A stretch of 13,522 bases of DNA. It comes from a virus. Location: UHGV virus genome UHGV-0292061; one strand, given 5' to 3'. Of this stretch, positions 1,949 to 8,415 are shown piece by piece; position 1 is the stretch's first letter, and the number at the start of each line of letters is the position of its first letter. The translations under genes and the position numbers were made by a program. Under the pieces are notes generated by a model. It saw only the letters and a list, made by a program, of their open reading frames with translations. It searched no databases and was not told the DNA's origin.

Positions 1949-2224
1949 TTACTCAATAAAGATCATTGGCTTACCGTTAAAACGTTCATGCCGTGTGACC
2001 GTCCATTGTTGTCCGTCATAAACAACGCGATCCCCGCGCCGTGGGCGGTATCCCGAAGAAAACACCACCAGAGAGACCGCAGGTCCGGACAGAGCATTCA
2101 GTTCTGCCAGTGTTTCGCCCGGGATCACAGCCATATCGACATCATTAATCGAGGCTGTCTTTCCCATCTTTCTGACCGTGATCGCATCCATACGCGCTGC
2201 CAGCCGGGAAAAGGGATCAGACAT
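1949..2224 (-). CDS. Head-tail joining / head completion protein (lambda FII-like)
   Basis: 91 aa; position between the capsid module and Z; the C-terminal RRGDRVVYDGQQWTV resembles the remembered FII RRGDTLTIGEENFWV segment. Start overlaps the upstream gene's stop. Confidence 0.65.
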   Translation of the reverse strand: MSDPFSRLAARMDAITVRKMGKTASINDVDMAVIPGETLAELNALSGPAVSLVVFSSGYRPRRGDRVVYDGQQWTVTRHERFNGKPMIFIE

Positions 2225-2540
2225 TGAGTTTTACCGGCACTTCTTCTGCACTGGTTCCGGCATCTGCCCAGACAACCCCGACCAGCGGATCAGAGCCGCT
2301 GTTAGTCAGCTGAACTTTTCCGGACTTCAGATAAACCTTCTTACCCGTTTTCATGTCATCCGTTTTCAGTTTAGGCAGGATAAACACACCTTCGGTCATG
2401 CCGTCGCCTGTTTCACCCTGTGGAATATCGGTCAGCGCCACCGCAAAAACATCACCCACCTGCACCAGATCTCCGCTGCTGATGGCTGCACTGGCAACAA
2501 TCGCCACCGTTTTTCCTTCTTCTACAAAATTCTTTGCCAT
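2217..2540 (-). CDS. Small beta-rich structural protein, possibly a head decoration / DUF2190-like protein
   Basis: 107 aa from MAKNFVEEGKTVAIV; GGAG 8 nt upstream of the ATG at 2540; sits directly downstream of the capsid gene and its terminator. Family assignment is from memory and weak. Confidence 0.5.
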   Translation of the reverse strand: MAKNFVEEGKTVAIVASAAISSGDLVQVGDVFAVALTDIPQGETGDGMTEGVFILPKLKTDDMKTGKKVYLKSGKVQLTNSGSDPLVGVVWADAGTSAEEVPVKLNV

Positions 2541-2583: not shown

Positions 2584-2602
2584 AAAAAAAGCCCTTACGG
2601 GC
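2584..2602 (-). terminator. Intrinsic terminator immediately downstream of the capsid gene
   Basis: Minus strand reads GGCCC-GUAA-GGGCU (GNRA tetraloop, four G:C pairs plus a G:U) followed by seven U, 25 nt after the capsid stop. Short stem, so probably leaky. Confidence 0.5.
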
Positions 2603-2626
2603 CATCAGAGTTGTTGTCTGCGACGT

Positions 2627-4585
2627 TTACGCCGTACATTTCACCAGACCGCGGTGATCAACTGGCGCGACACCGGCGTCAATACGCACTTTCGTTGTCA
2701 CGCCATCCACACTGAAGCCCTCCATCTGATCAATATATGGCGTATCCACACCGTTGAGATAAGCCACTTCAATCGTATCGGAGCCTTTGGACGCAGCCAG
2801 GTAGAAGGTGGTCTGGCTGTTATCATCAAGACGAGGCTCTGCAATAACGGTCGCAAAATCTTTCACCGGGTTAATAATACCGGCGTTAATGTCAGCCCCC
2901 TTGACACTTGAGGAGCGAATGACCTGGTTAGCAACAGACTCCATCGCCGTCGGTACCAGTACGAACGCAGGACGAATATTCAGATGACGCTCCCCCTCTT
3001 TCTGAACGCGCATCAACTGGCGGGCTTTATCCAGCGATGCCACGTCCATTGCAGCGCTCTCCAGTACGTTTGCATGTTTCGCTTTATCGAACAGACTTAC
3101 ATTATCTGTGGAGATTTTCGGGTTAGACGTCAGAATGGCATAAACCAGATCGGCAATGGTGGATTTCGCCGCACGGCCCAGTTTCATCGGGACATCGGTC
3201 AGCATATTCAGATCATCATTGATAATGGCCTGACGGGTGATACTGAACAGCTCGCCATAGGTCGCCAGTGCAATAGTGGCCTGTTTATCTCCGGTGGTGA
3301 CGTATTTATATTCCGCCCCTTCACGCACCTGACGCAGAGCACTGAAGCCCCCCATACCCACACGATGGGCAATTTTAAAATCAGACAACTGACCTTTCCG
3401 CGTCCACTGTTCATAGGTTTCAGGGGCATCTTCCCAGCCCTGCAGAATGGCTTTGTTCGCAACATCCAGCAGAATATTACCGAAGTCAGACGTACTGTGT
3501 GTGAACGCCGCACCGACCATCTGCATCGGGTTATAACCGGAAACCCCAATACCCCGTTCAGTCAGTGACATACGGGCATATTCACGCAGGGTCATCCCGT
3601 TGTAGACATTATCACGTTCGGTTTTTTCAAATCCGGCACGCGCCATCAGCGCCTGGCGGATCCCGTCCCCCACAAAATTACCGTTACCGGCATAAATATG
3701 AGCCGGGGTATTTTTATTGGATGGCGTGGACTCGCGCCCCATCTCGTTCAACAGCTTTTCGCGGGCCTGCTCCAGCGAACATTCAGGATCGGCAAGACAC
3801 TGAGCCTGCAGCGTCTGATAACGCCCGCCAAACATGGCAAACAGATCATTAATACCGTTTACACGCGCTTTTTGCTCTGCCAGTACCTGCGCACGGATAC
3901 TGTTTTCATCCACCACGGGTGCTGCTGCCTGCACTGGCGTCCGGGAGGCTGCAGGTTCATCATCCTGTACGCGTGGAGCACTGTTGCGTGGCGGAGTAAT
4001 CATGTTTCGAATGGATTCCGGCATCTTTTTAAATTCCTCTGTACGTTTTGACTGAATACATGCCATTGCCTTAACGGCTGGCGTTACCTGATCAGCAAAT
4101 CCATGTGCCAGACATTCGGCACCGGACATCCAGGTCTCATCCGCCAGCATGGCAGCAATTTCATCGGTGGTTTTCCCGGTTTTCTGTGCATAAGCGGGTA
4201 ACAGAACCGCCTCAACTTTATCGAGCAGGTCGGCATAGGTGCGCATGTCCTCCGCATCACCGCCCGTAAAGCCAAATGGTTTATGAATCATCATGAAAGT
4301 GTTTTCCGGCATAATGACCGGGTTTCCCACCATCGCAATGACCGACGCCATTGACGCCGCCACACCGTCGACATAAACGGTAATGGACGCACCATGTGTT
4401 TTCAGTGCATTAAAAATGGCGATGCCTTCAAAGACATCGCCACCCGGTGAATTAATATGAAGATTAATGTGGGTGATATCGCCCAGTGCATTCAGATCAC
4501 TGATAAACTGCTTCGCTGTAACACCCCAGAAACCAATCTCGTCATAAATATAAATATCCGCGTCACTCTGGTGACCAGCCTGCAT
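2627..4585 (-). CDS. Prohead protease (ClpP-like, S14) - scaffold-like linker - major capsid protein fusion
   Basis: 652 aa from MQAGHQSDADIYIYDEIGFWG. The N-terminal ~200 aa carry ClpP-type catalytic motifs (GVAASMAS serine motif, MMIHKPFG histidine motif). The middle is a Q/A/E-rich predicted helical linker. The C-terminal ~330 aa are called capsid by size and position only. ATG at 4585 lies 13 nt after the portal stop; the track's upstream extension to 4846 overlaps the portal and was rejected. Confidence 0.8.
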   Translation of the reverse strand: MQAGHQSDADIYIYDEIGFWGVTAKQFISDLNALGDITHINLHINSPGGDVFEGIAIFNALKTHGASITVYVDGVAASMASVIAMVGNPVIMPENTFMMIHKPFGFTGGDAEDMRTYADLLDKVEAVLLPAYAQKTGKTTDEIAAMLADETWMSGAECLAHGFADQVTPAVKAMACIQSKRTEEFKKMPESIRNMITPPRNSAPRVQDDEPAASRTPVQAAAPVVDENSIRAQVLAEQKARVNGINDLFAMFGGRYQTLQAQCLADPECSLEQAREKLLNEMGRESTPSNKNTPAHIYAGNGNFVGDGIRQALMARAGFEKTERDNVYNGMTLREYARMSLTERGIGVSGYNPMQMVGAAFTHSTSDFGNILLDVANKAILQGWEDAPETYEQWTRKGQLSDFKIAHRVGMGGFSALRQVREGAEYKYVTTGDKQATIALATYGELFSITRQAIINDDLNMLTDVPMKLGRAAKSTIADLVYAILTSNPKISTDNVSLFDKAKHANVLESAAMDVASLDKARQLMRVQKEGERHLNIRPAFVLVPTAMESVANQVIRSSSVKGADINAGIINPVKDFATVIAEPRLDDNSQTTFYLAASKGSDTIEVAYLNGVDTPYIDQMEGFSVDGVTTKVRIDAGVAPVDHRGLVKCTA

Positions 4586-4598
4586 CCTGAACCAGGAA

Positions 4599-6107
4599 TT
4601 ATTCTTCGGACTGGTCGTCGGTGTGCTGCGGCTCCTGTCGTTTCGTTGCGGCACTGCTGCCTCCTTTATCACTGGCCGGATCGGTATCAAATACCAGATC
4701 CAGCTTGCGGTTTTCATCAATTTCGGCCTTGCGCCGACGTTTGACATCATCCGGATTACGACCACCAGCACGTACCCAGTCTGATTCTGTCGCCGCTCCA
4801 CCACGAATCTGGATTTTCCAGGCCTCAGCCTCCTTAACAGGGTCAATCCACGGCATCACTGGTCCGAAATACACCGCGGTATACAGTGAAGAACGGTCAA
4901 GATCGCGGGGTAGCCTGATAACACCGGATGCCACAGCCTGTTTCAGCCAGGCACGATACATCGGACGGGTGACGGCACCAATAAACCAGTCCTGCAGGAT
5001 CAGGTAGCCATCAGTAGACTCAACCAGTTCCTGACGCTGGGCGCTGTAAGTGCCGTTATAGTTGCGTGCCGTACTGGAAAAACTCAGACGACTGCCCGCC
5101 GCCACGGCACGCAACTGACCATTACGAAAAGTTTCCAGGTTAGGATTGGGACGATCCGACTTCACCATTCCGATTTCTTCGCCGGGTTTCAGATCGTCGT
5201 AAATAATGCCTGGCTGAATGGTAAGCTCGCGTTCATTCTCCTTGCTGTCATTACCATCCGTTTCATAGCTCTGTCCGTCGCCTTTCCGGATGTACATCCC
5301 CAGAGCAGCGGCGATCCTTGCTGCAGTCAGCTCAGAATCTTCATACTCTTTCAGGGCGCTGAGGCGGATCAGCACACCGGACAATAAAGACGTCCCGCGC
5401 ATCTGGTGCAGACGGCGAACAAATTTAAGATGCAGCATTCGCTCTGCATCCACTTCTTTGGTTTCCATCTGCCGTCCGGATACGGGACGGCTTTTATACA
5501 CCAGATATTTTTCGGGACGCCCCCAGTCATCAACAAACACGCCCTGATTCAGCCTGTTGCTCTCATCACTGGTCATGGGAATAAAGTCCGGCTCGAGCGC
5601 CTCCAGCCAGAAATGAACACCGGCAGAAGGCGTCAGGCTGTTTATGCGCCCGGAAACCATCTGGGCAAACACCTCACCATCGCGCAGCCAGGTACGCAGC
5701 ATCAGACGTTCCAGCATCGGACGGGTAAACTGCCCGGTGACTTCCGGACTGACAGACCATTCACTCCATCGGGTGCGTATCTCCGCTGCCAGATCACGGG
5801 CAATGGCCCCATTGCGTAATACCGGATGTGGCTCGACAATAATCCCGTTTTTCCCCACCACCCGTTCTTCCAGCTTGTCAAATACACCAATGACCAGATC
5901 GTGGTTGTTATCAAGGTAACGGGCCTGCTCACGTAACGACACGGCCCCGTACTGGCTTAACTGGTCGGCAGTTCGGTTCTCCCGTCGGGCTTTGTGTGTC
6001 CGCGTCGTTTTTACGGCCTCATAAGCCTGGATCACCGCACGGGAACGCAGCCTTGCCGCTTTCCATCCTGGTGAAAAAACGCCAATCACATCATCAAGAA
6101 TTGCCAT
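4599..6107 (-). CDS. B: Portal protein (lambda gpB-like family)
   Basis: 502 aa from MAILDDVIGVF; position between W and the protease/capsid gene matches the lambda W-B-C order; start ATG overlaps the W stop (TGATG). Sequence resemblance to remembered gpB is weak, so the call rests mainly on order and size. Confidence 0.8.
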   Translation of the reverse strand: MAILDDVIGVFSPGWKAARLRSRAVIQAYEAVKTTRTHKARRENRTADQLSQYGAVSLREQARYLDNNHDLVIGVFDKLEERVVGKNGIIVEPHPVLRNGAIARDLAAEIRTRWSEWSVSPEVTGQFTRPMLERLMLRTWLRDGEVFAQMVSGRINSLTPSAGVHFWLEALEPDFIPMTSDESNRLNQGVFVDDWGRPEKYLVYKSRPVSGRQMETKEVDAERMLHLKFVRRLHQMRGTSLLSGVLIRLSALKEYEDSELTAARIAAALGMYIRKGDGQSYETDGNDSKENERELTIQPGIIYDDLKPGEEIGMVKSDRPNPNLETFRNGQLRAVAAGSRLSFSSTARNYNGTYSAQRQELVESTDGYLILQDWFIGAVTRPMYRAWLKQAVASGVIRLPRDLDRSSLYTAVYFGPVMPWIDPVKEAEAWKIQIRGGAATESDWVRAGGRNPDDVKRRRKAEIDENRKLDLVFDTDPASDKGGSSAATKRQEPQHTDDQSEE

Positions 6108-6319
6108 CAGAACCTCGCCAACCGGTACCCGGGATGCCCCCGTCGTCGTGTAATCAGAGCCGCAAGGCGGCGCTCCCACTCCTGCCGCCCCTGCCGGATC
6201 TCAGATAAGTTTTCCATGGTCATCTGCTGACCATTAAAAGTGACGGATTTTCCGTCCAGCACCGCCATTTCAGCTTCCGTATAACGCTGAATCATGGCTT
6301 CAATATCATTCTGATTCAT
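6107..6319 (-). CDS. W: Head-tail joining protein, lambda gpW-like
   Basis: 70 aa from MNQNDIEAM...; ends ...ITRRRGHPGYRLARF, like the remembered gpW C-terminus (...QRRRGPAGFYV). ATG 6319-6317 overlaps the large-terminase stop (ATGA) with GGAGG 6 nt upstream. Confidence 0.85.
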   Translation of the reverse strand: MNQNDIEAMIQRYTEAEMAVLDGKSVTFNGQQMTMENLSEIRQGRQEWERRLAALITRRRGHPGYRLARF

Positions 6320-8415
6320 AACCATCCTCCGGAAGTCAGCCAGGGGTTAACATCGTCAGTTACTGTTTTCTTCCGTTTTTGTTTTTTAACAGGCGTGGAT
6401 ACCGGTTCCGGTGAGGGTGACGGTTCGGTACTGTCCGGGACACACTCCAGCCAGGTTTCCCGGCTCGCCCACTCCGGTGCATCCGGCCAGCGGATCTTTT
6501 CGTATCCATGCAGAATGACCAGAGCCTCGGCATACACCATCAGGTCAAAAGCTTCGTTGGCACCGCGACCCGGTTTACTCCATTTCCCGTCACTGCTCCG
6601 CTCTTCATACGTCAGTTCGTCGTAAAACCAGCTCCCCAGCCAGTCAGGGAAATGCACATAGCCGGGACCTGGCGAGTCACGCCATAACGCGTTATTCACC
6701 CGGTCTTTCAGGGCATCCGTCTGAAGAAACCAGAGCGGCACATCACCTGCGGCCTGCGCCCGTCGGCCCGTTCGTCCGGTGTTATCAGGGAATGTACGGC
6801 TGATCAGTTTTGCGCGCCGGATGCTGTCGCCCTTAAACAGGTAAATACGTTTACCAAGGCCATCACGACGGCAACGACGCCAGAATTTATAGGCATTATC
6901 AGTGACCCCGTCTTCACCGCCGGAGTCCACCGCCATTGCCATCAGTCGCATTTGTTGAGAAGGATCGGAGGCCAGCGGCCAGCTTTTATGAAAAACATCC
7001 GTCAGCAGGACATCCCAGTCTTCCGGATAGCTGGCCGGATCAATTCGCTGGCTCTCCCCGTCGCTGTCACCGCGCAATGACTGCGTGATGTTGTAACGAT
7101 CAATAATCCAGCGTTCGCCACGGCTGCCATAGCCCGTTACCTGAACCACAAAACGGCGATGACGTCCCGCCTGCACATCCACTGCCGCCACAAGGAAATT
7201 AACGCCATCCGGCACACTGCGGGAAGGAACTGGCTCTGCCCGCTGCTCAAGCAGTTCACTTTTTCGTTGCTCCATGCTGGCGCGGGGAAGATAAGGTAAT
7301 CCCCAGTCGGTATTGATAACCGCCCTGAGTGTTTCTTCGCTTCCTGTCGCTTCATACTCCTGTTCTGCAGTCAGTAATTTGTAAACCAGTTGCGCCCAGG
7401 TCTGATACGCAGCAGCTGGCCCTTCCATCCAGAAACTGGCGATACGGGAGCGGCGCGGTTCACCGGAAACGTTGCCGTTACGATCAATGACCTGACCTTC
7501 ACGCAACCAGACTCCTGCACTATTGAGCTCACGCTTTTTCTCCGCAGTGATAATGCCGCTGCAGTGCGGGCAAAGTAGATACGCCGCCTCACTGGCTTTA
7601 AAGGGATCCGGTTCATTACGGTAGCCGGTCATGGCATCCATGGCTGGCTGAAAATATTCACCGCAGTGCGGACATGGCCAGTACCAGCGGCGGCGGTCAC
7701 CACGATTGTAAAGGGAAAGAATACCAGTCGTCGGTGGCGCTTCATGAGGCGACTTACGTCGCCATTTGCTGTCGCAGATGTCACGTCCCGGCGAGCTCTC
7801 CACCAGAGTCATCCCGGCGGACATAAATGTGGTGGTACGTTTTGAGGCCAGGGAGAAACCATCACCCTCGCTGTCGATATTCTCCGGAAAACGGTCGTAA
7901 TCGGTTAAGGCGACAAACCGGTAATCCGACGACGACATAATGTTGACCGAGGGCCAACCAATTTTAAGGAACGAGCCATCCCTGAACGTCTTATCATGAA
8001 CATTATTGTCGTTACGACGTGGACTCATTCTTTTCTTTACCGCCGCACTGCTTCTGAACGTTCTGTCGAGGCGCTTTTTAGAATGCTCGCGGGCCTTATC
8101 TTCGGTCATCTGCACAACGAGCATGTCCGAAGGATCGCAAACGATGGTATAGACAATCCATCCATCGATCAGACCAATGGTCTTCCCTGTTCGCGCAGGA
8201 CCAACAAAAATCACCGCATCGTATTCACGCGATGCCAGGCAGTTCATGGGCTCAATGATGTAGGGTGTCAGTTCAGGATCCCATGGCACCGAGTTACCAG
8301 CCCCCTTGGGAACACGCATGAATTTTTTAACAGCCTCCGAAATCGGCATGCGACGTGGTGGGGAAAATCCTGCCGATATGTCCCTTCCCAAATTTCGGGC
8401 TGATGAAAAACCCAT
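6316..8415 (-). CDS. A: Terminase large subunit (lambda gpA-like)
   Basis: 699 aa; Walker A-like GPARTGKT near the N-terminus and a CPHCGE motif as in remembered lambda gpA; TAGGAGGAATA-ATG RBS at the 8415 start; 8 nt after the small-terminase stop. Confidence 0.9.
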   Translation of the reverse strand: MGFSSARNLGRDISAGFSPPRRMPISEAVKKFMRVPKGAGNSVPWDPELTPYIIEPMNCLASREYDAVIFVGPARTGKTIGLIDGWIVYTIVCDPSDMLVVQMTEDKAREHSKKRLDRTFRSSAAVKKRMSPRRNDNNVHDKTFRDGSFLKIGWPSVNIMSSSDYRFVALTDYDRFPENIDSEGDGFSLASKRTTTFMSAGMTLVESSPGRDICDSKWRRKSPHEAPPTTGILSLYNRGDRRRWYWPCPHCGEYFQPAMDAMTGYRNEPDPFKASEAAYLLCPHCSGIITAEKKRELNSAGVWLREGQVIDRNGNVSGEPRRSRIASFWMEGPAAAYQTWAQLVYKLLTAEQEYEATGSEETLRAVINTDWGLPYLPRASMEQRKSELLEQRAEPVPSRSVPDGVNFLVAAVDVQAGRHRRFVVQVTGYGSRGERWIIDRYNITQSLRGDSDGESQRIDPASYPEDWDVLLTDVFHKSWPLASDPSQQMRLMAMAVDSGGEDGVTDNAYKFWRRCRRDGLGKRIYLFKGDSIRRAKLISRTFPDNTGRTGRRAQAAGDVPLWFLQTDALKDRVNNALWRDSPGPGYVHFPDWLGSWFYDELTYEERSSDGKWSKPGRGANEAFDLMVYAEALVILHGYEKIRWPDAPEWASRETWLECVPDSTEPSPSPEPVSTPVKKQKRKKTVTDDVNPWLTSGGWL

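What the first reader, a model, noticed from the sequence alone, without database searches (positions are those of the whole stretch)
2627..4585. Single 652-aa ORF fusing ClpP-type prohead protease, scaffold-like linker and capsid
Lambda uses separate C (protease), Nu3 (scaffold, nested in-frame) and E (capsid) genes. Here ClpP catalytic motifs, a Q/A/E-rich helical stretch (ENSIRAQVLAEQKARV...LEQAREKLLNEM) and a capsid-sized C-terminal domain share one frame. Maturation would then require self-cleavage. In-frame internal Met codons near the linker (for example ...FKKMPESIRNM...) could give a scaffold-capsid product without protease, by analogy with C/Nu3.
Basis: partly seen in the sequence, partly recalled or inferred. 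Interest (0 to 1): 0.5.

Follow-up and report, generated by a model that had tools for sequence, protein, structure and literature searches.

The report
Fused protease–scaffold–capsid phage head gene
This is the well-known single head gene of Gifsy-2/mEp460-type lambdoid prophages, which joins the capsid-maturation protease, a scaffold and the capsid protein in one frame; comparison of about 100 relatives also shows a conserved internal ribosome-binding site and start codon that probably gives a second, protease-free scaffold–capsid product.

Summary
It lies on the minus strand. One uninterrupted frame (2627–4585; more likely 2627–4654 from a GTG, 675 aa) carries three parts:
- a ClpP-like S14 protease (Pfam 4.5e-36);
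- a variable Pro/Ala-rich linker followed by a helical scaffold-like segment;
- an HK97-fold capsid protein (Pfam Phage_capsid_4 8e-55; AlphaFold pLDDT 85.5; Foldseek probability 1.0 to HK97, D3, T5 capsids and encapsulins).

It is already known. It scores 986 bits against NCBIfam NF045540, [quoted passage not shown]. It is ≥99% identical to genes of phages mEp460 and cdtI. It occurs in 2,125 of 5,426 complete E. coli genomes. It is 70% identical to the Gifsy-2 "tripartite capsid gene" (Effantin 2010).

- The ATG at 4024 is invariant in 86 of 86 homologues.
- An AGGA 10 nt upstream is kept in 68 of 69 representatives, through a synonymous site (GAG 55/55).
- This spot is the gene's peak of synonymous constraint and its minimum of predicted mRNA structure.
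- The same junction start is seen in 13 of 13 more distant fusions, seven of them with a different N-terminal, presumably protease, part.

A nested scaffold–capsid product (465 aa) is therefore likely (about 0.75) but not shown experimentally.

The parts
2627..4654 (-). Probable full coding sequence of the protease-scaffold-capsid fusion protein (675 aa, GTG start, stop at 2627-2629)
Evidence: Open frame. Best SD of all in-frame starts. RefSeq 675-aa proteins P0004 and P0008. NF045540, 986 bits.
2627..4585 (-).
   Evidence: Translation. Phage annotators (mEp460, cdtI) use this start. It has a weak SD and the ATG is not conserved.
4660..4666 (-). Shine-Dalgarno AAGGAGG, 5 nt upstream of GTG 4654, embedded in the 3' end of the portal gene
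   Evidence: Sequence. Pairing energy -11.6 kcal/mol. Same arrangement in mEp213 and 1720a-02.
4082..4519 (-). ClpP-like (peptidase S14) prohead protease domain, residues 23-168 of the 652-aa numbering
   Evidence: Pfam PF00574, 4.5e-36. NF045542 head maturation protease, ClpP-related, 3.3e-64. PDB ClpP chains down to 3.9e-16.
4352..4354 (-). Catalytic Ser78 codon (TCA) in GVAASMAS
   Evidence: Aligned with the ClpP active-site motif. Invariant in 7 homologues of 58-78% identity.
4283..4285 (-). Catalytic His101 codon (CAT) in MMIHKP
4136..4138 (-). Glu150 codon, aligned with the catalytic Asp171 of ClpP (Asp replaced by Glu). Invariant, whereas the neighbouring Asp149 is not.
   Evidence: Residue-by-residue alignment. 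Invariant columns.
4035..4039 (-). Internal Shine-Dalgarno-like GAGGA (core AGGA 4035-4038), 10 nt upstream of ATG 4024
   Evidence: AGGA is present at this aligned position in 68 of 69 representatives; the next best site in the gene has 29 of 69. The Glu codon is GAG 55/55, against 40% GAG overall. Amino-acid replacements there (Gln CAG, Lys AAG, Gly GGA) keep the nucleotides.
4022..4024 (-). Invariant internal ATG (Met188 of 652; Met211 of 675), the proposed start of the nested product
   Evidence: ATG in 86 of 86 homologues. Centre of the synonymous-constraint peak and of the minimum of predicted mRNA structure.
2627..4024 (-). Predicted nested coding sequence: scaffold + capsid protein without protease (465 aa)
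   Evidence: Inferred. Modelled at pLDDT 85.5.
3908..3997 (-). Variable Pro/Ala/Gln-rich low-complexity linker (about residues 197-226). Its length and sequence differ even between close relatives.
   Evidence: Alignments. pLDDT below 60. 675-, 686- and 690-aa variants.
3734..3907 (-). Helical scaffold-like ('delta-like') segment: three helices, residues 227-284
   Evidence: Helices 40-63, 70-78 and 84-97 of the model, pLDDT 86-94. Conserved IRAQ...R..I..F motif.
3677..3733 (-). Disordered, variable segment (EMGRESTPSNKNTPAHIYA) between scaffold helices and capsid N-arm. Candidate region for the maturation cleavage.
   Evidence: pLDDT about 50 and indels in alignments. The cleavage site itself is inferred, not shown.
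2630..3676 (-). HK97-fold major capsid protein (about residues 304-652)
   Evidence: Pfam PF25209, 8.3e-55, and Mu-like gpT. Profile hit to solved chains 8rkc/8rkx ('Bacteriophage Mu GpT domain-containing protein'), 8.8e-11, and 9jod ('Major capsid protein'), 2.8e-9. Foldseek probability 1.00 to HK97, D3, T5 and FCWL1 capsids and encapsulins.
2590..2603 (-). GC-rich hairpin followed by a T-run, between the capsid gene and the decoration gene (terminator-like)
   Evidence: Scan. Annotated as a rho-independent terminator at the same place in mEp460 and mEp213.
2217..2540 (-). Head decoration / cement protein gene (DUF2190, 107 aa), the constant downstream partner of the fusion gene
   Evidence: Pfam Phage_cement_2, 2e-20, and phrog_122 head decoration. 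Same neighbour in all relatives examined.
4599..6107 (-). Lambda-family portal gene, the constant upstream partner. Its last 56 nt overlap the fusion gene's 5' end.
   Evidence: Pfam Phage_portal_2, 5.7e-82. mEp460 annotation.

Best explanation
This is the single head-shell gene of a Gifsy-2/mEp460-type lambdoid (pro)phage. It sits between the portal gene and the DUF2190 decoration gene.

The long product (675 aa, from GTG 4654) has three parts:
- a ClpP-like serine protease;
- a flexible Pro/Ala-rich linker plus a three-helix scaffolding ('delta-like') segment;
- an HK97-fold major capsid protein.

A second, nested product is very probably also made: scaffold + capsid, 465 aa, from the internal ATG at 4024, which has its own ribosome-binding site.

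Proposed mechanism. Both forms co-assemble on the portal through their capsid domains, with scaffold and protease parts pointing inwards. In this way the protease enters the procapsid as a covalently tethered minority of subunits. It then cuts away itself and the scaffold segments somewhere in the disordered stretch before the capsid N-arm. The roughly 350-aa capsid protein expands on DNA packaging. The decoration protein cements the shell.

Shown here: domain identities and fold, synteny, and the conserved start signals.

Inferred: that the internal start is used, the ratio of the two products, the cleavage sites, and the T=7 and decoration details. These last are from my recollection of Effantin 2010, which I could not read.
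For: Identity of the gene:
- Pfam, PHROG and NCBIfam matches.
- At least 99% nucleotide identity to mEp460, cdtI and Ayreon.
- 69.6% amino-acid identity over the full length to Gifsy-2.
- RefSeq name in 2,125 of 5,426 E. coli genomes.
- The same tripartite reading was published for the 57%-identical MD8 gp5 (PMC8508860).
- Citing papers say the Gifsy-2 protease and coat genes are fused (PMC12315714).

Fold: AlphaFold pLDDT 85.5; Foldseek probability 1.0 to HK97-fold shells.

Catalytic residues are invariant.

Internal start:
- The ATG is invariant in 86 of 86 homologues.
- AGGA is present in 68 of 69 representatives, against 29 of 69 for the next site.
- The Glu codon is GAG 55/55, against 40% GAG in the gene overall. 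It ranks first of 466 degenerate columns, and 4 of the 5 most constrained codons lie at residues 180-193.
- The sliding synonymous-identity peak falls at residues 180-194, z=4.4.
- The ten least-structured 50-nt windows of 625 are centred on codons 184-193.
- No conserved overlapping ORF is present.
- The same junction ATG with an SD occurs in 7 of 7 fusions with a different N-terminal, presumably protease, part and in 6 of 6 distant ClpP-type fusions, where it is the best or tied-best SD among 22-29 in-frame ATGs.
Against: - There are no expression, proteomic or ribosome-profiling data for any member.
- In the window itself the internal SD is only moderate (-6.0 kcal/mol, 6th of 46 in-frame starts), and the spacing of 10 nt is on the long side.
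- Ranked by raw pairing energy, other conserved positions score as well. One example is Met114 inside the protease, preceded by Gly-Gly-Asp codons. So SD + ATG can arise from protein constraint alone. Only the synonymous-site and structure evidence separates Met188 from such cases.
- The upstream GTG has a much stronger SD, so the long form may dominate.
- The two 'stand-alone' scaffold-capsid proteins in the databases are artefacts: one a frameshifted pseudogene, one a contig-end fragment.
- I could not read Effantin 2010, which may contain protein data that bear on this.
Confidence: 0.75

Rival explanations
1. Only the full-length polyprotein is made. Every capsid subunit carries its own protease, which removes itself in cis or trans. 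The conserved AGGA-N10-ATG then reflects something other than initiation. It could be a ribosome pause between domains that helps the ClpP domain fold, a protein-level need for the Glu/Asp-Phe-x-x-Met-Pro motif as a cleavage or docking site, or a relic of an ancestral two-gene arrangement.
For: The upstream GTG has by far the strongest SD. The protein motif SKRxEEFxxMP is itself conserved. Conserved SD-like + ATG combinations can arise from coding constraint, as at Met114. As I recall it, the Gifsy-2 abstract describes one composite gene without mentioning a second product.
Against: Protein constraint cannot explain several observations:
- GAG is used 55/55 even in AT-rich Pasteurellaceae.
- Replacements by Gln, Lys or Gly keep the nucleotides AGGA, and Asp is never seen at that site.
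- Constraint extends to neighbouring synonymous sites (AAA at 180 and 193, GAA at 186).
- The region is the least structured in the gene.

A relic would have decayed across lineages that are only 36-57% identical, yet it recurs in 13 of 13 distant fusions, with canonical 5-8 nt spacing in most of them. A pause site does not need an in-frame ATG.
Confidence: 0.2
2. The long ORF is an artefact: a sequencing error or frameshift has joined two real genes (protease-scaffold and capsid), as in lambda C/Nu3 plus E.
For: None found.
Against: The frame is uninterrupted in 86 homologous loci from Enterobacterales, Pasteurellaceae, Pseudomonas and Shewanella. More than 100 of the best 150 cluster representatives at 50% identity are matched end to end. 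The gene is in 2,003 complete E. coli genomes at 80% coverage or more. There is a curated full-length NCBI family.
Confidence: 0.01
3. The conserved nucleotides around 4024 belong to a programmed frameshift site. The window has TTT AAA AAG just before the ATG, and an upstream SD, as in dnaX.
For: The window sequence A-AAA-AAG with GAGGA upstream superficially resembles the dnaX -1 frameshift signal.
Against: The AAAAAG is not conserved. Homologues have GAA AAG, GAG CAT, GCC CAC, GAC GCT or ACA AAT at those codons. The alternative forward frames are closed within a median of 11-38 codons, with minima of 2-9.
Confidence: 0.02

Closest known systems
Gifsy-2 'tripartite capsid gene' (STM1033 region; Effantin, Figueroa-Bossi, Schoehn, Bossi & Conway, Virology 2010, 402:355) and its curated family NCBIfam NF045540
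   Same: Same architecture: ClpP-like protease, a central domain of about 200 residues, and an HK97-fold capsid protein. Identity is 69.6% over the whole length. The neighbours are the same: a lambda-type portal upstream, and a decoration gene of about 107 aa (DUF2190/Phage_cement_2 in the window) and gpZ/gpU homologues downstream. The window protein scores 986 bits against a cut-off of 475.
   Different: Only sequence divergence and the length of the variable linker. Whether that paper considered an internal start I could not check, because the paper is not held.
Pseudomonas phage MD8 gp5 (Int J Mol Sci 2021, PMC8508860)
   Same: 57% identical over the full length. Its authors concluded independently that protease, scaffold and capsid protein are encoded by one gene. 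It has the same invariant MP and AGGA (CAG GAG) at the junction.
   Different: GC-rich host. The passages returned by my term search of that paper do not mention internal initiation.
Lambda C / Nu3 / E
   Same: A protease gene with an in-frame nested start that yields a scaffold sharing the C-terminus of the long product (established knowledge; Shaw & Murialdo 1980, cited). The portal-protease-scaffold-decoration/capsid gene order is similar, and capsid stabilisation relies on a decoration protein.
   Different: By my knowledge, the lambda protease gpC belongs to a different peptidase family (S49), not S14 ClpP. Its capsid protein gpE is a separate gene. Its decoration gene D lies before E, and gpD is unrelated to DUF2190. 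Here the nested product would include the capsid protein itself.
HK97 gp4 (protease) / gp5 (delta domain + capsid)
   Same: The proposed short product (helical N-terminal scaffold segment fused to an HK97-fold capsid protein and removed by the protease) is the HK97 gp5 design. The fused scaffolding domain in HK97 and T5 is described in PMC10275583.
   Different: The HK97 protease is a separate gene of another family and is packaged through a C-terminal targeting tail. Here it would be targeted by covalent fusion. HK97 uses chain-mail cross-links rather than a decoration protein. Cross-linking was not tested here.
Second fusion family (NCBIfam NF045541, 'prohead protease/major capsid protein fusion protein'; possible members are Ralstonia phage YO135_4 and Rhodobacter phage RcOceanus gp8, which I did not score against the profile)
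   Same: The scaffold-capsid part is homologous: the window matches profile positions 176-630 of NF045541 (402 bits, below the 525-bit cut-off), and is 31% identical to the Ralstonia phage. The neighbours are the same (portal upstream, DUF2190 downstream). An in-frame ATG with an SD lies at the junction.
   Different: The N-terminal part of the seven phage fusions compared here is not ClpP-like over its length; I take it to be a different protease but did not test this. The window gene scores below that family's cut-off, so it is not a member.

Membership tests
ClpP-like prohead protease / major capsid protein fusion (NCBIfam NF045540; Gifsy-2 type) | Full-length match to the family profile above the curated cut-off | tested here: met
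   985.9 bits against a cut-off of 475; residues 9-651 on profile positions 2-651 of 652. phrog_133 matches end to end, 1187 bits.
ClpP-like prohead protease / major capsid protein fusion (NCBIfam NF045540; Gifsy-2 type) | N-terminal S14 (ClpP-fold) domain with the catalytic Ser and His | tested here: met
   PF00574, 4.5e-36. Ser78 and His101 lie in the canonical motifs and are invariant. Glu150 occupies the catalytic Asp position.
ClpP-like prohead protease / major capsid protein fusion (NCBIfam NF045540; Gifsy-2 type) | C-terminal HK97-fold major capsid protein | tested here: met
   PF25209, 8.3e-55. Profile hits to solved chains 8rkc and 9jod. AlphaFold model pLDDT 85.5 and Foldseek probability 1.00 to HK97, D3 and T5 capsids.
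ClpP-like prohead protease / major capsid protein fusion (NCBIfam NF045540; Gifsy-2 type) | Position in the head module: lambda-type portal upstream, DUF2190 decoration gene downstream, no other capsid or scaffold gene | tested here: met
   The same order is seen in Gifsy-2, Fels-1, MD8, mEp213 and 1720a-02.
ClpP-like prohead protease / major capsid protein fusion (NCBIfam NF045540; Gifsy-2 type) | Proteolytic maturation, leaving only the C-terminal capsid domain in virions | not testable with these tools
   Needs virion protein analysis. Reported for Gifsy-2 according to my recollection of Effantin 2010 (paper not held).
Nested in-frame genes of the lambda C/Nu3 kind | Internal in-frame start codon with its own ribosome-binding site, kept by selection | tested here: met
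   ATG in 86 of 86. AGGA in 68 of 69, kept through a synonymous site. Peak of synonymous constraint and minimum of mRNA structure at this spot. The signal recurs in 13 of 13 distant fusions.
Nested in-frame genes of the lambda C/Nu3 kind | The shorter protein is actually made and is needed for assembly | not testable with these tools
   No expression data were available. See the decisive next steps.
Nested in-frame genes of the lambda C/Nu3 kind | Homology to lambda gpC (S49 protease) and a separate capsid gene | tested here: not met
   The protease is S14 ClpP-like, not S49. SppA-type models score far below their cut-off (22 bits against 155). The capsid protein is in the same frame. So this is an analogue of C/Nu3, not a member.
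HK97-type capsid precursor (delta domain + capsid protein) | Helical N-terminal scaffolding segment directly fused to an HK97-fold capsid protein | tested here: met
   Model helices 40-97, then a disordered stretch, then an HK97 fold.
HK97-type capsid precursor (delta domain + capsid protein) | Separate protease gene; chain-mail cross-linking instead of a decoration protein | tested here: not met
   The protease is fused in frame. A DUF2190 cement protein gene follows. Cross-link residues were not examined.
NCBIfam NF045541 (second protease/capsid fusion family) | Full-length match above the cut-off | tested here: not met
   402 bits against a cut-off of 525. Only residues 197-649 align.

The most novel reading that the evidence does not exclude
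Protease-capsid fusion genes are really nested gene pairs. Across the whole ClpP-type family, and in seven related fusions whose N-terminal part is not ClpP-like, a selected internal ribosome-binding site and ATG at the protease/scaffold junction produce a protease-free scaffold-capsid protein alongside the full-length form. The protease would then be delivered into the procapsid as a tunable minority of capsid subunits that carry it covalently. That is a packaging and stoichiometry mechanism distinct from HK97 (targeting tail) and from lambda (separate capsid gene). I found no report of this in the searchable literature, but I could not read the Gifsy-2 paper.
Probability: 0.7. Interest if true: 0.55.

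Novelty: already known. Interest (0 to 1): 0.35.

Why it matters
The fusion itself adds nothing new. It is annotated routinely, is present in about 40% of complete E. coli genomes, and has been studied structurally in Gifsy-2.

The internal start is what could matter. If every capsid subunit carried a protease, a T=7 procapsid would enclose about 415 protease domains, whereas (from memory) HK97 packs far fewer. A nested start would explain how these phages set the protease-to-capsid ratio. It would also explain why the fusion is evolutionarily stable, and how the protease is targeted into the shell without a separate targeting signal.

It also matters for annotation and engineering. These genes encode two products. 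The N-terminus called by many phage annotators (ATG 4585) is probably wrong. Expressing the 465-aa form alone should give protease-free procapsids of a very common E. coli and Salmonella prophage type, including Stx- and Cdt-converting phages.

Tried and rejected
- **Plus-strand reading of 2627-4585.** It is full of stops. The gene is on the minus strand.
- **AlphaFold on the full 675 aa with 15 close homologues.** It failed, with mean pLDDT 35.9, and was not used. A second run on residues 188-652 with 67 diverse sequences worked.
- **Effantin 2010 and Duda 2013.** Neither paper is held. Four full-text searches for an internal start in such fusions, plus a fifth for papers on the fusion itself, found nothing relevant except the MD8 paper.
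- **Raw SD:anti-SD pairing energy averaged over homologues.** It does not single out Met188, because Gly-rich protein motifs score as well. I dropped it as a criterion and used synonymous sites instead.
- **Stand-alone scaffold-capsid genes as proof that 'MP...' is a natural N-terminus.** P0167 is a multiply frameshifted pseudogene and P0227 is a contig-end fragment. Both were rejected as evidence.
- **Programmed frameshift at AAAAAG.** The sequence is not conserved.
- **Overlapping gene as the cause of synonymous constraint.** No frame is conserved open. My first version of that script mislabelled the antisense frames, so I redid it.
- **Promoter upstream of the internal start.** No sigma-70-like site is found between 2100 and 4900.
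Full report
**Observation**

The coordinates 2627-4585 hold no open frame on the plus strand. On the minus strand they hold a 652-codon ATG-to-stop frame, embedded in a longer open frame 2627-4846.

The window is the late region of a lambdoid siphovirus, read right to left:
- DNA methylase, holin, endolysin, Rz;
- small terminase (DUF1441) and large terminase (gpA type);
- a 72-aa ORF (6107-6325), placed like the head-tail adaptor of mEp460;
- lambda-family portal (4599-6107);
- the ORF in question;
- a DUF2190/Phage_cement_2 decoration gene (2217-2540);
- a small connector gene, then gpZ, gpU and the tail tube protein.

**What the ORF is**

Sequence profiles:
- Pfam finds CLP_protease at residues 23-168 (4.5e-36) and Phage_capsid_4 at 352-649 (8.3e-55), plus Mu-like gpT.
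- phrog_133 matches end to end.
- NCBIfam NF045540, [quoted passage not shown], scores 986 bits against a cut-off of 475.

Protease half:
- It aligns with solved ClpP chains (best 3.9e-16).
- Ser78 lies in GVAASMAS and His101 in MMIHKP. Glu150 occupies the position of ClpP's catalytic Asp.
- All three are invariant in seven homologues of 58-78% identity.

Capsid half:
- A profile of 69 homologues hits solved chains 8rkc/8rkx ("Bacteriophage Mu GpT domain-containing protein", 8.8e-11) and 9jod ("Major capsid protein", 2.8e-9).
- A first AlphaFold run on the whole protein with a shallow alignment failed (pLDDT 36).
- A second run on residues 188-652 with 67 diverse sequences gave mean pLDDT 85.5 and pTM 0.70. 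The model has a disordered 39-residue linker, three confident helices (residues 40-97 of the model), a disordered stretch, then a compact domain.
- Foldseek matches that model to HK97-fold shells at probability 1.00: encapsulins and the capsids of FCWL1, phiXacJX1, LME-1, D3, HK97 and T5. There are 348 hits at E≤0.001.

**It is not an artefact, and it is not new**

- The DNA is ≥98.6% identical to 16 phage records (≥99% in 13), among them mEp460, cdtI, Ayreon and Tritos. There the gene is variously called protease/scaffold, head maturation protease or major capsid protein.
- It occurs in 2,125 of 5,426 complete E. coli genomes, up to six copies each, under the RefSeq name of the fusion family.
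- Full-length relatives exist in Stx- and Cdt-converting phages, VT1-Sakai, mEp213, LLS, Fels-1, Gifsy-2 (69.6% identity), a Providencia phage and some 30 Pseudomonas phages.
- Seventy-nine further loci from different species all carry one uninterrupted frame. They come mainly from Enterobacterales, Pasteurellaceae, Pseudomonas and Shewanella.
- More than 100 of the best 150 cluster representatives at 50% identity are matched end to end at 36-54% identity.
- The arrangement was described for Gifsy-2 (Effantin et al. [quoted passage not shown] It was described independently for Pseudomonas phage MD8 (PMC8508860).

**Correction of the 5' end**

- The residues just upstream (…NSWFR) belong to a motif SW[FY] conserved in all 69 non-redundant homologues.
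- Only 38 of these 69 have ATG at that position; the others have ATC, ATT, AGC and so on.
- Many distant homologues begin 2-5 residues before the motif.
- In the window the only upstream start codon in frame is GTG 4654. It is preceded by AAGGAGG at a 5-nt spacing, the best anti-SD pairing of all 46 in-frame start codons (-11.6 kcal/mol).
- The same arrangement is seen in mEp213 and 1720a-02.
- RefSeq calls this 675-aa form.
- The 5' end then overlaps the portal gene by 56 nt.

**The internal start**

I tested this on 86 homologues, reduced to 69 representatives below 95% nucleotide identity.

1. The first Met of that peptide (Met188; ATG 4024-4022) is invariant. The tetramer AGGA at -14 to -11 is present in 68 of 69, and the exception has AGGAG one base upstream. 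The next most conserved AGGA in the gene occurs in 29 of 69.

2. AGGA spans a synonymous site.
   - The Glu codon at -5 is GAG in 55 of 55. GAG makes up 40% of all Glu codons in these genes, and the next Glu column reaches 62%.
   - This holds even in AT-rich Haemophilus and Pasteurella.
   - Where the amino acid differs it is Gln (CAG), Lys (AAG) or Gly (GGA), which are exactly the changes that keep the nucleotides.
   - This codon ranks first of 466 degenerate columns. Four of the five most constrained codons of the gene are 180, 183, 186 and 193.

3. A 15-codon sliding window of synonymous identity peaks at residues 180-194 (z=4.4). All ten top windows overlap Met188.

4. The ten 50-nt windows with the least predicted mRNA structure, out of 625, are centred on codons 184-193.

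5. No alternative frame is conserved open there. The AAAAAG of the window is not conserved, so neither an overlapping gene nor a frameshift site explains the constraint.

6. The signal recurs independently.
   - Seven fusions with a different N-terminal, presumably protease, part each have an in-frame ATG at the protease/scaffold junction (residues 197-227). These are from Ralstonia, Pseudomonas LPPA33, Rhodobacter RcOceanus, Bordetella, Synechococcus, Vibrio and Paenibacillus phages. Most have a canonically spaced SD, for example agagaggaaaacaccATG and cccggagggccagATG; it is weak in the Vibrio phage.
   - In six metagenomic ClpP-type fusions of 36-45% identity, the junction ATG has the best or tied-best SD of 22-29 in-frame ATGs, for example aaacaggaggaacaaaacATG.

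A caution applies. Raw pairing energy alone does not single the site out, because Gly-rich motifs inside the protease score as well. In the window the internal SD is moderate (-6.0 kcal/mol) with a 10-nt spacing. No expression data exist in what I could read.

**Mechanism proposed**

Two products come from one frame. The first is a 675-aa protease-scaffold-capsid chain from GTG 4654. The second is a 465-aa scaffold-capsid chain from ATG 4024, which is an HK97-gp5-like precursor.

They co-assemble through the capsid domain on the portal, so the protease is brought inside as a covalently attached minority. The protease then removes itself and the helical scaffold segments. The cuts probably fall in the disordered, variable stretch at residues 285-303. 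The capsid protein of about 350 aa expands, and the DUF2190 protein cements it.

Domain identities, fold, synteny and the conserved start signals are shown. Use of the start, the ratio of the two products, the cleavage sites and the capsid geometry are inferred. The geometry rests on my memory of the Gifsy-2 abstract (T=7, with gpD-like trimers).

**Comparison and verdict**

The gene is a member of the NF045540 / Gifsy-2 family; all testable defining features are met. It works like lambda C/Nu3 in its in-frame nesting, and like HK97 gp5 in having the scaffold fused to the capsid protein. It is a member of neither. The protease is S14 ClpP-like rather than lambda's gpC type (S49, by my knowledge), the capsid protein is not a separate gene, the protease is not a separate gene, and a cement protein is present. 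It scores below the cut-off of the second fusion family, NF045541.

As a finding it is already known, and its interest is low. The part worth following up is the well-supported but untested nested start, which I could not find reported.

Noticed in passing
window 4599-4654 (minus strand): The probable GTG start of the fusion gene and its AAGGAGG lie inside the last 56-68 nt of the portal gene, in another frame. Database proteins of 1,080-1,135 aa carry portal + ClpP + capsid domains (P0033, P0034, P0068). They look like single-base indels or miscalls in this overlap.
   Followed up: partly
window 4136-4141 (minus strand): The position of ClpP's catalytic Asp is occupied by an invariant Glu (Glu150). 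The adjacent Asp149 varies (Lys, Glu, Ser in relatives). The phage protease may therefore use a Ser-His-Glu triad or a dyad.
   Followed up: partly
window 3908-3997 (minus strand); P0012, P0032, P0046: The Pro/Ala/Gln/Thr-rich linker after the internal start varies in length and sequence even between proteins 91-96% identical overall (675, 686 and 690 aa). The flanks stay constant, which suggests frequent indels or recombination in this spacer.
   Followed up: no
window 2590-2603 (minus strand): A GC-rich hairpin plus T-run lies directly after the capsid stop codon and before the decoration gene. It is annotated as a rho-independent terminator in mEp460 and mEp213. It sits in the middle of the late operon, so it is probably a partial terminator or an mRNA-stabilising hairpin.
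   Followed up: partly
window 10263-10739 (minus strand): This 158-aa ORF lies between the holin and Rz. It reads like the lambda R transglycosylase (from my memory of the sequence) but gave no Pfam hit at E≤0.001.
   Followed up: no
window 11155-12207 (minus strand): A 350-aa N6/N4 DNA methyltransferase gene (PF01555, 2.7e-42) lies immediately upstream of the lysis cassette and overlaps the holin ORF start by 20 nt.
   Followed up: no
window 1949-2224 (minus strand): This 91-aa ORF matches Pfam 'Gifsy-2' (PF13856), whose description reads 'ATP-binding sugar transporter from pro-phage'. By position it is a head-tail connector protein, and PHROGs (phrog_153) calls it a minor tail protein. The Pfam description looks like a misnomer.
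   Followed up: no
L095 2357-4332 (GCA_000755365.1, contig BBMQ01000056.1): A relative in which the fusion gene is broken by several frameshifts into a 201-aa 'ClpP' ORF and a 443-aa 'capsid' ORF that begins at the homologous Met-Pro. It looks like a decaying prophage, or sequencing errors, that mimics an unfused gene pair.
   Followed up: yes
window 12838-13401 and 9415-9798 (minus strand): A 187-aa ORF with no Pfam match lies at the right end of the window. A 127-aa ORF with an ORF11CD3 domain lies between Rz and the small terminase. The function of both is unknown.
   Followed up: no
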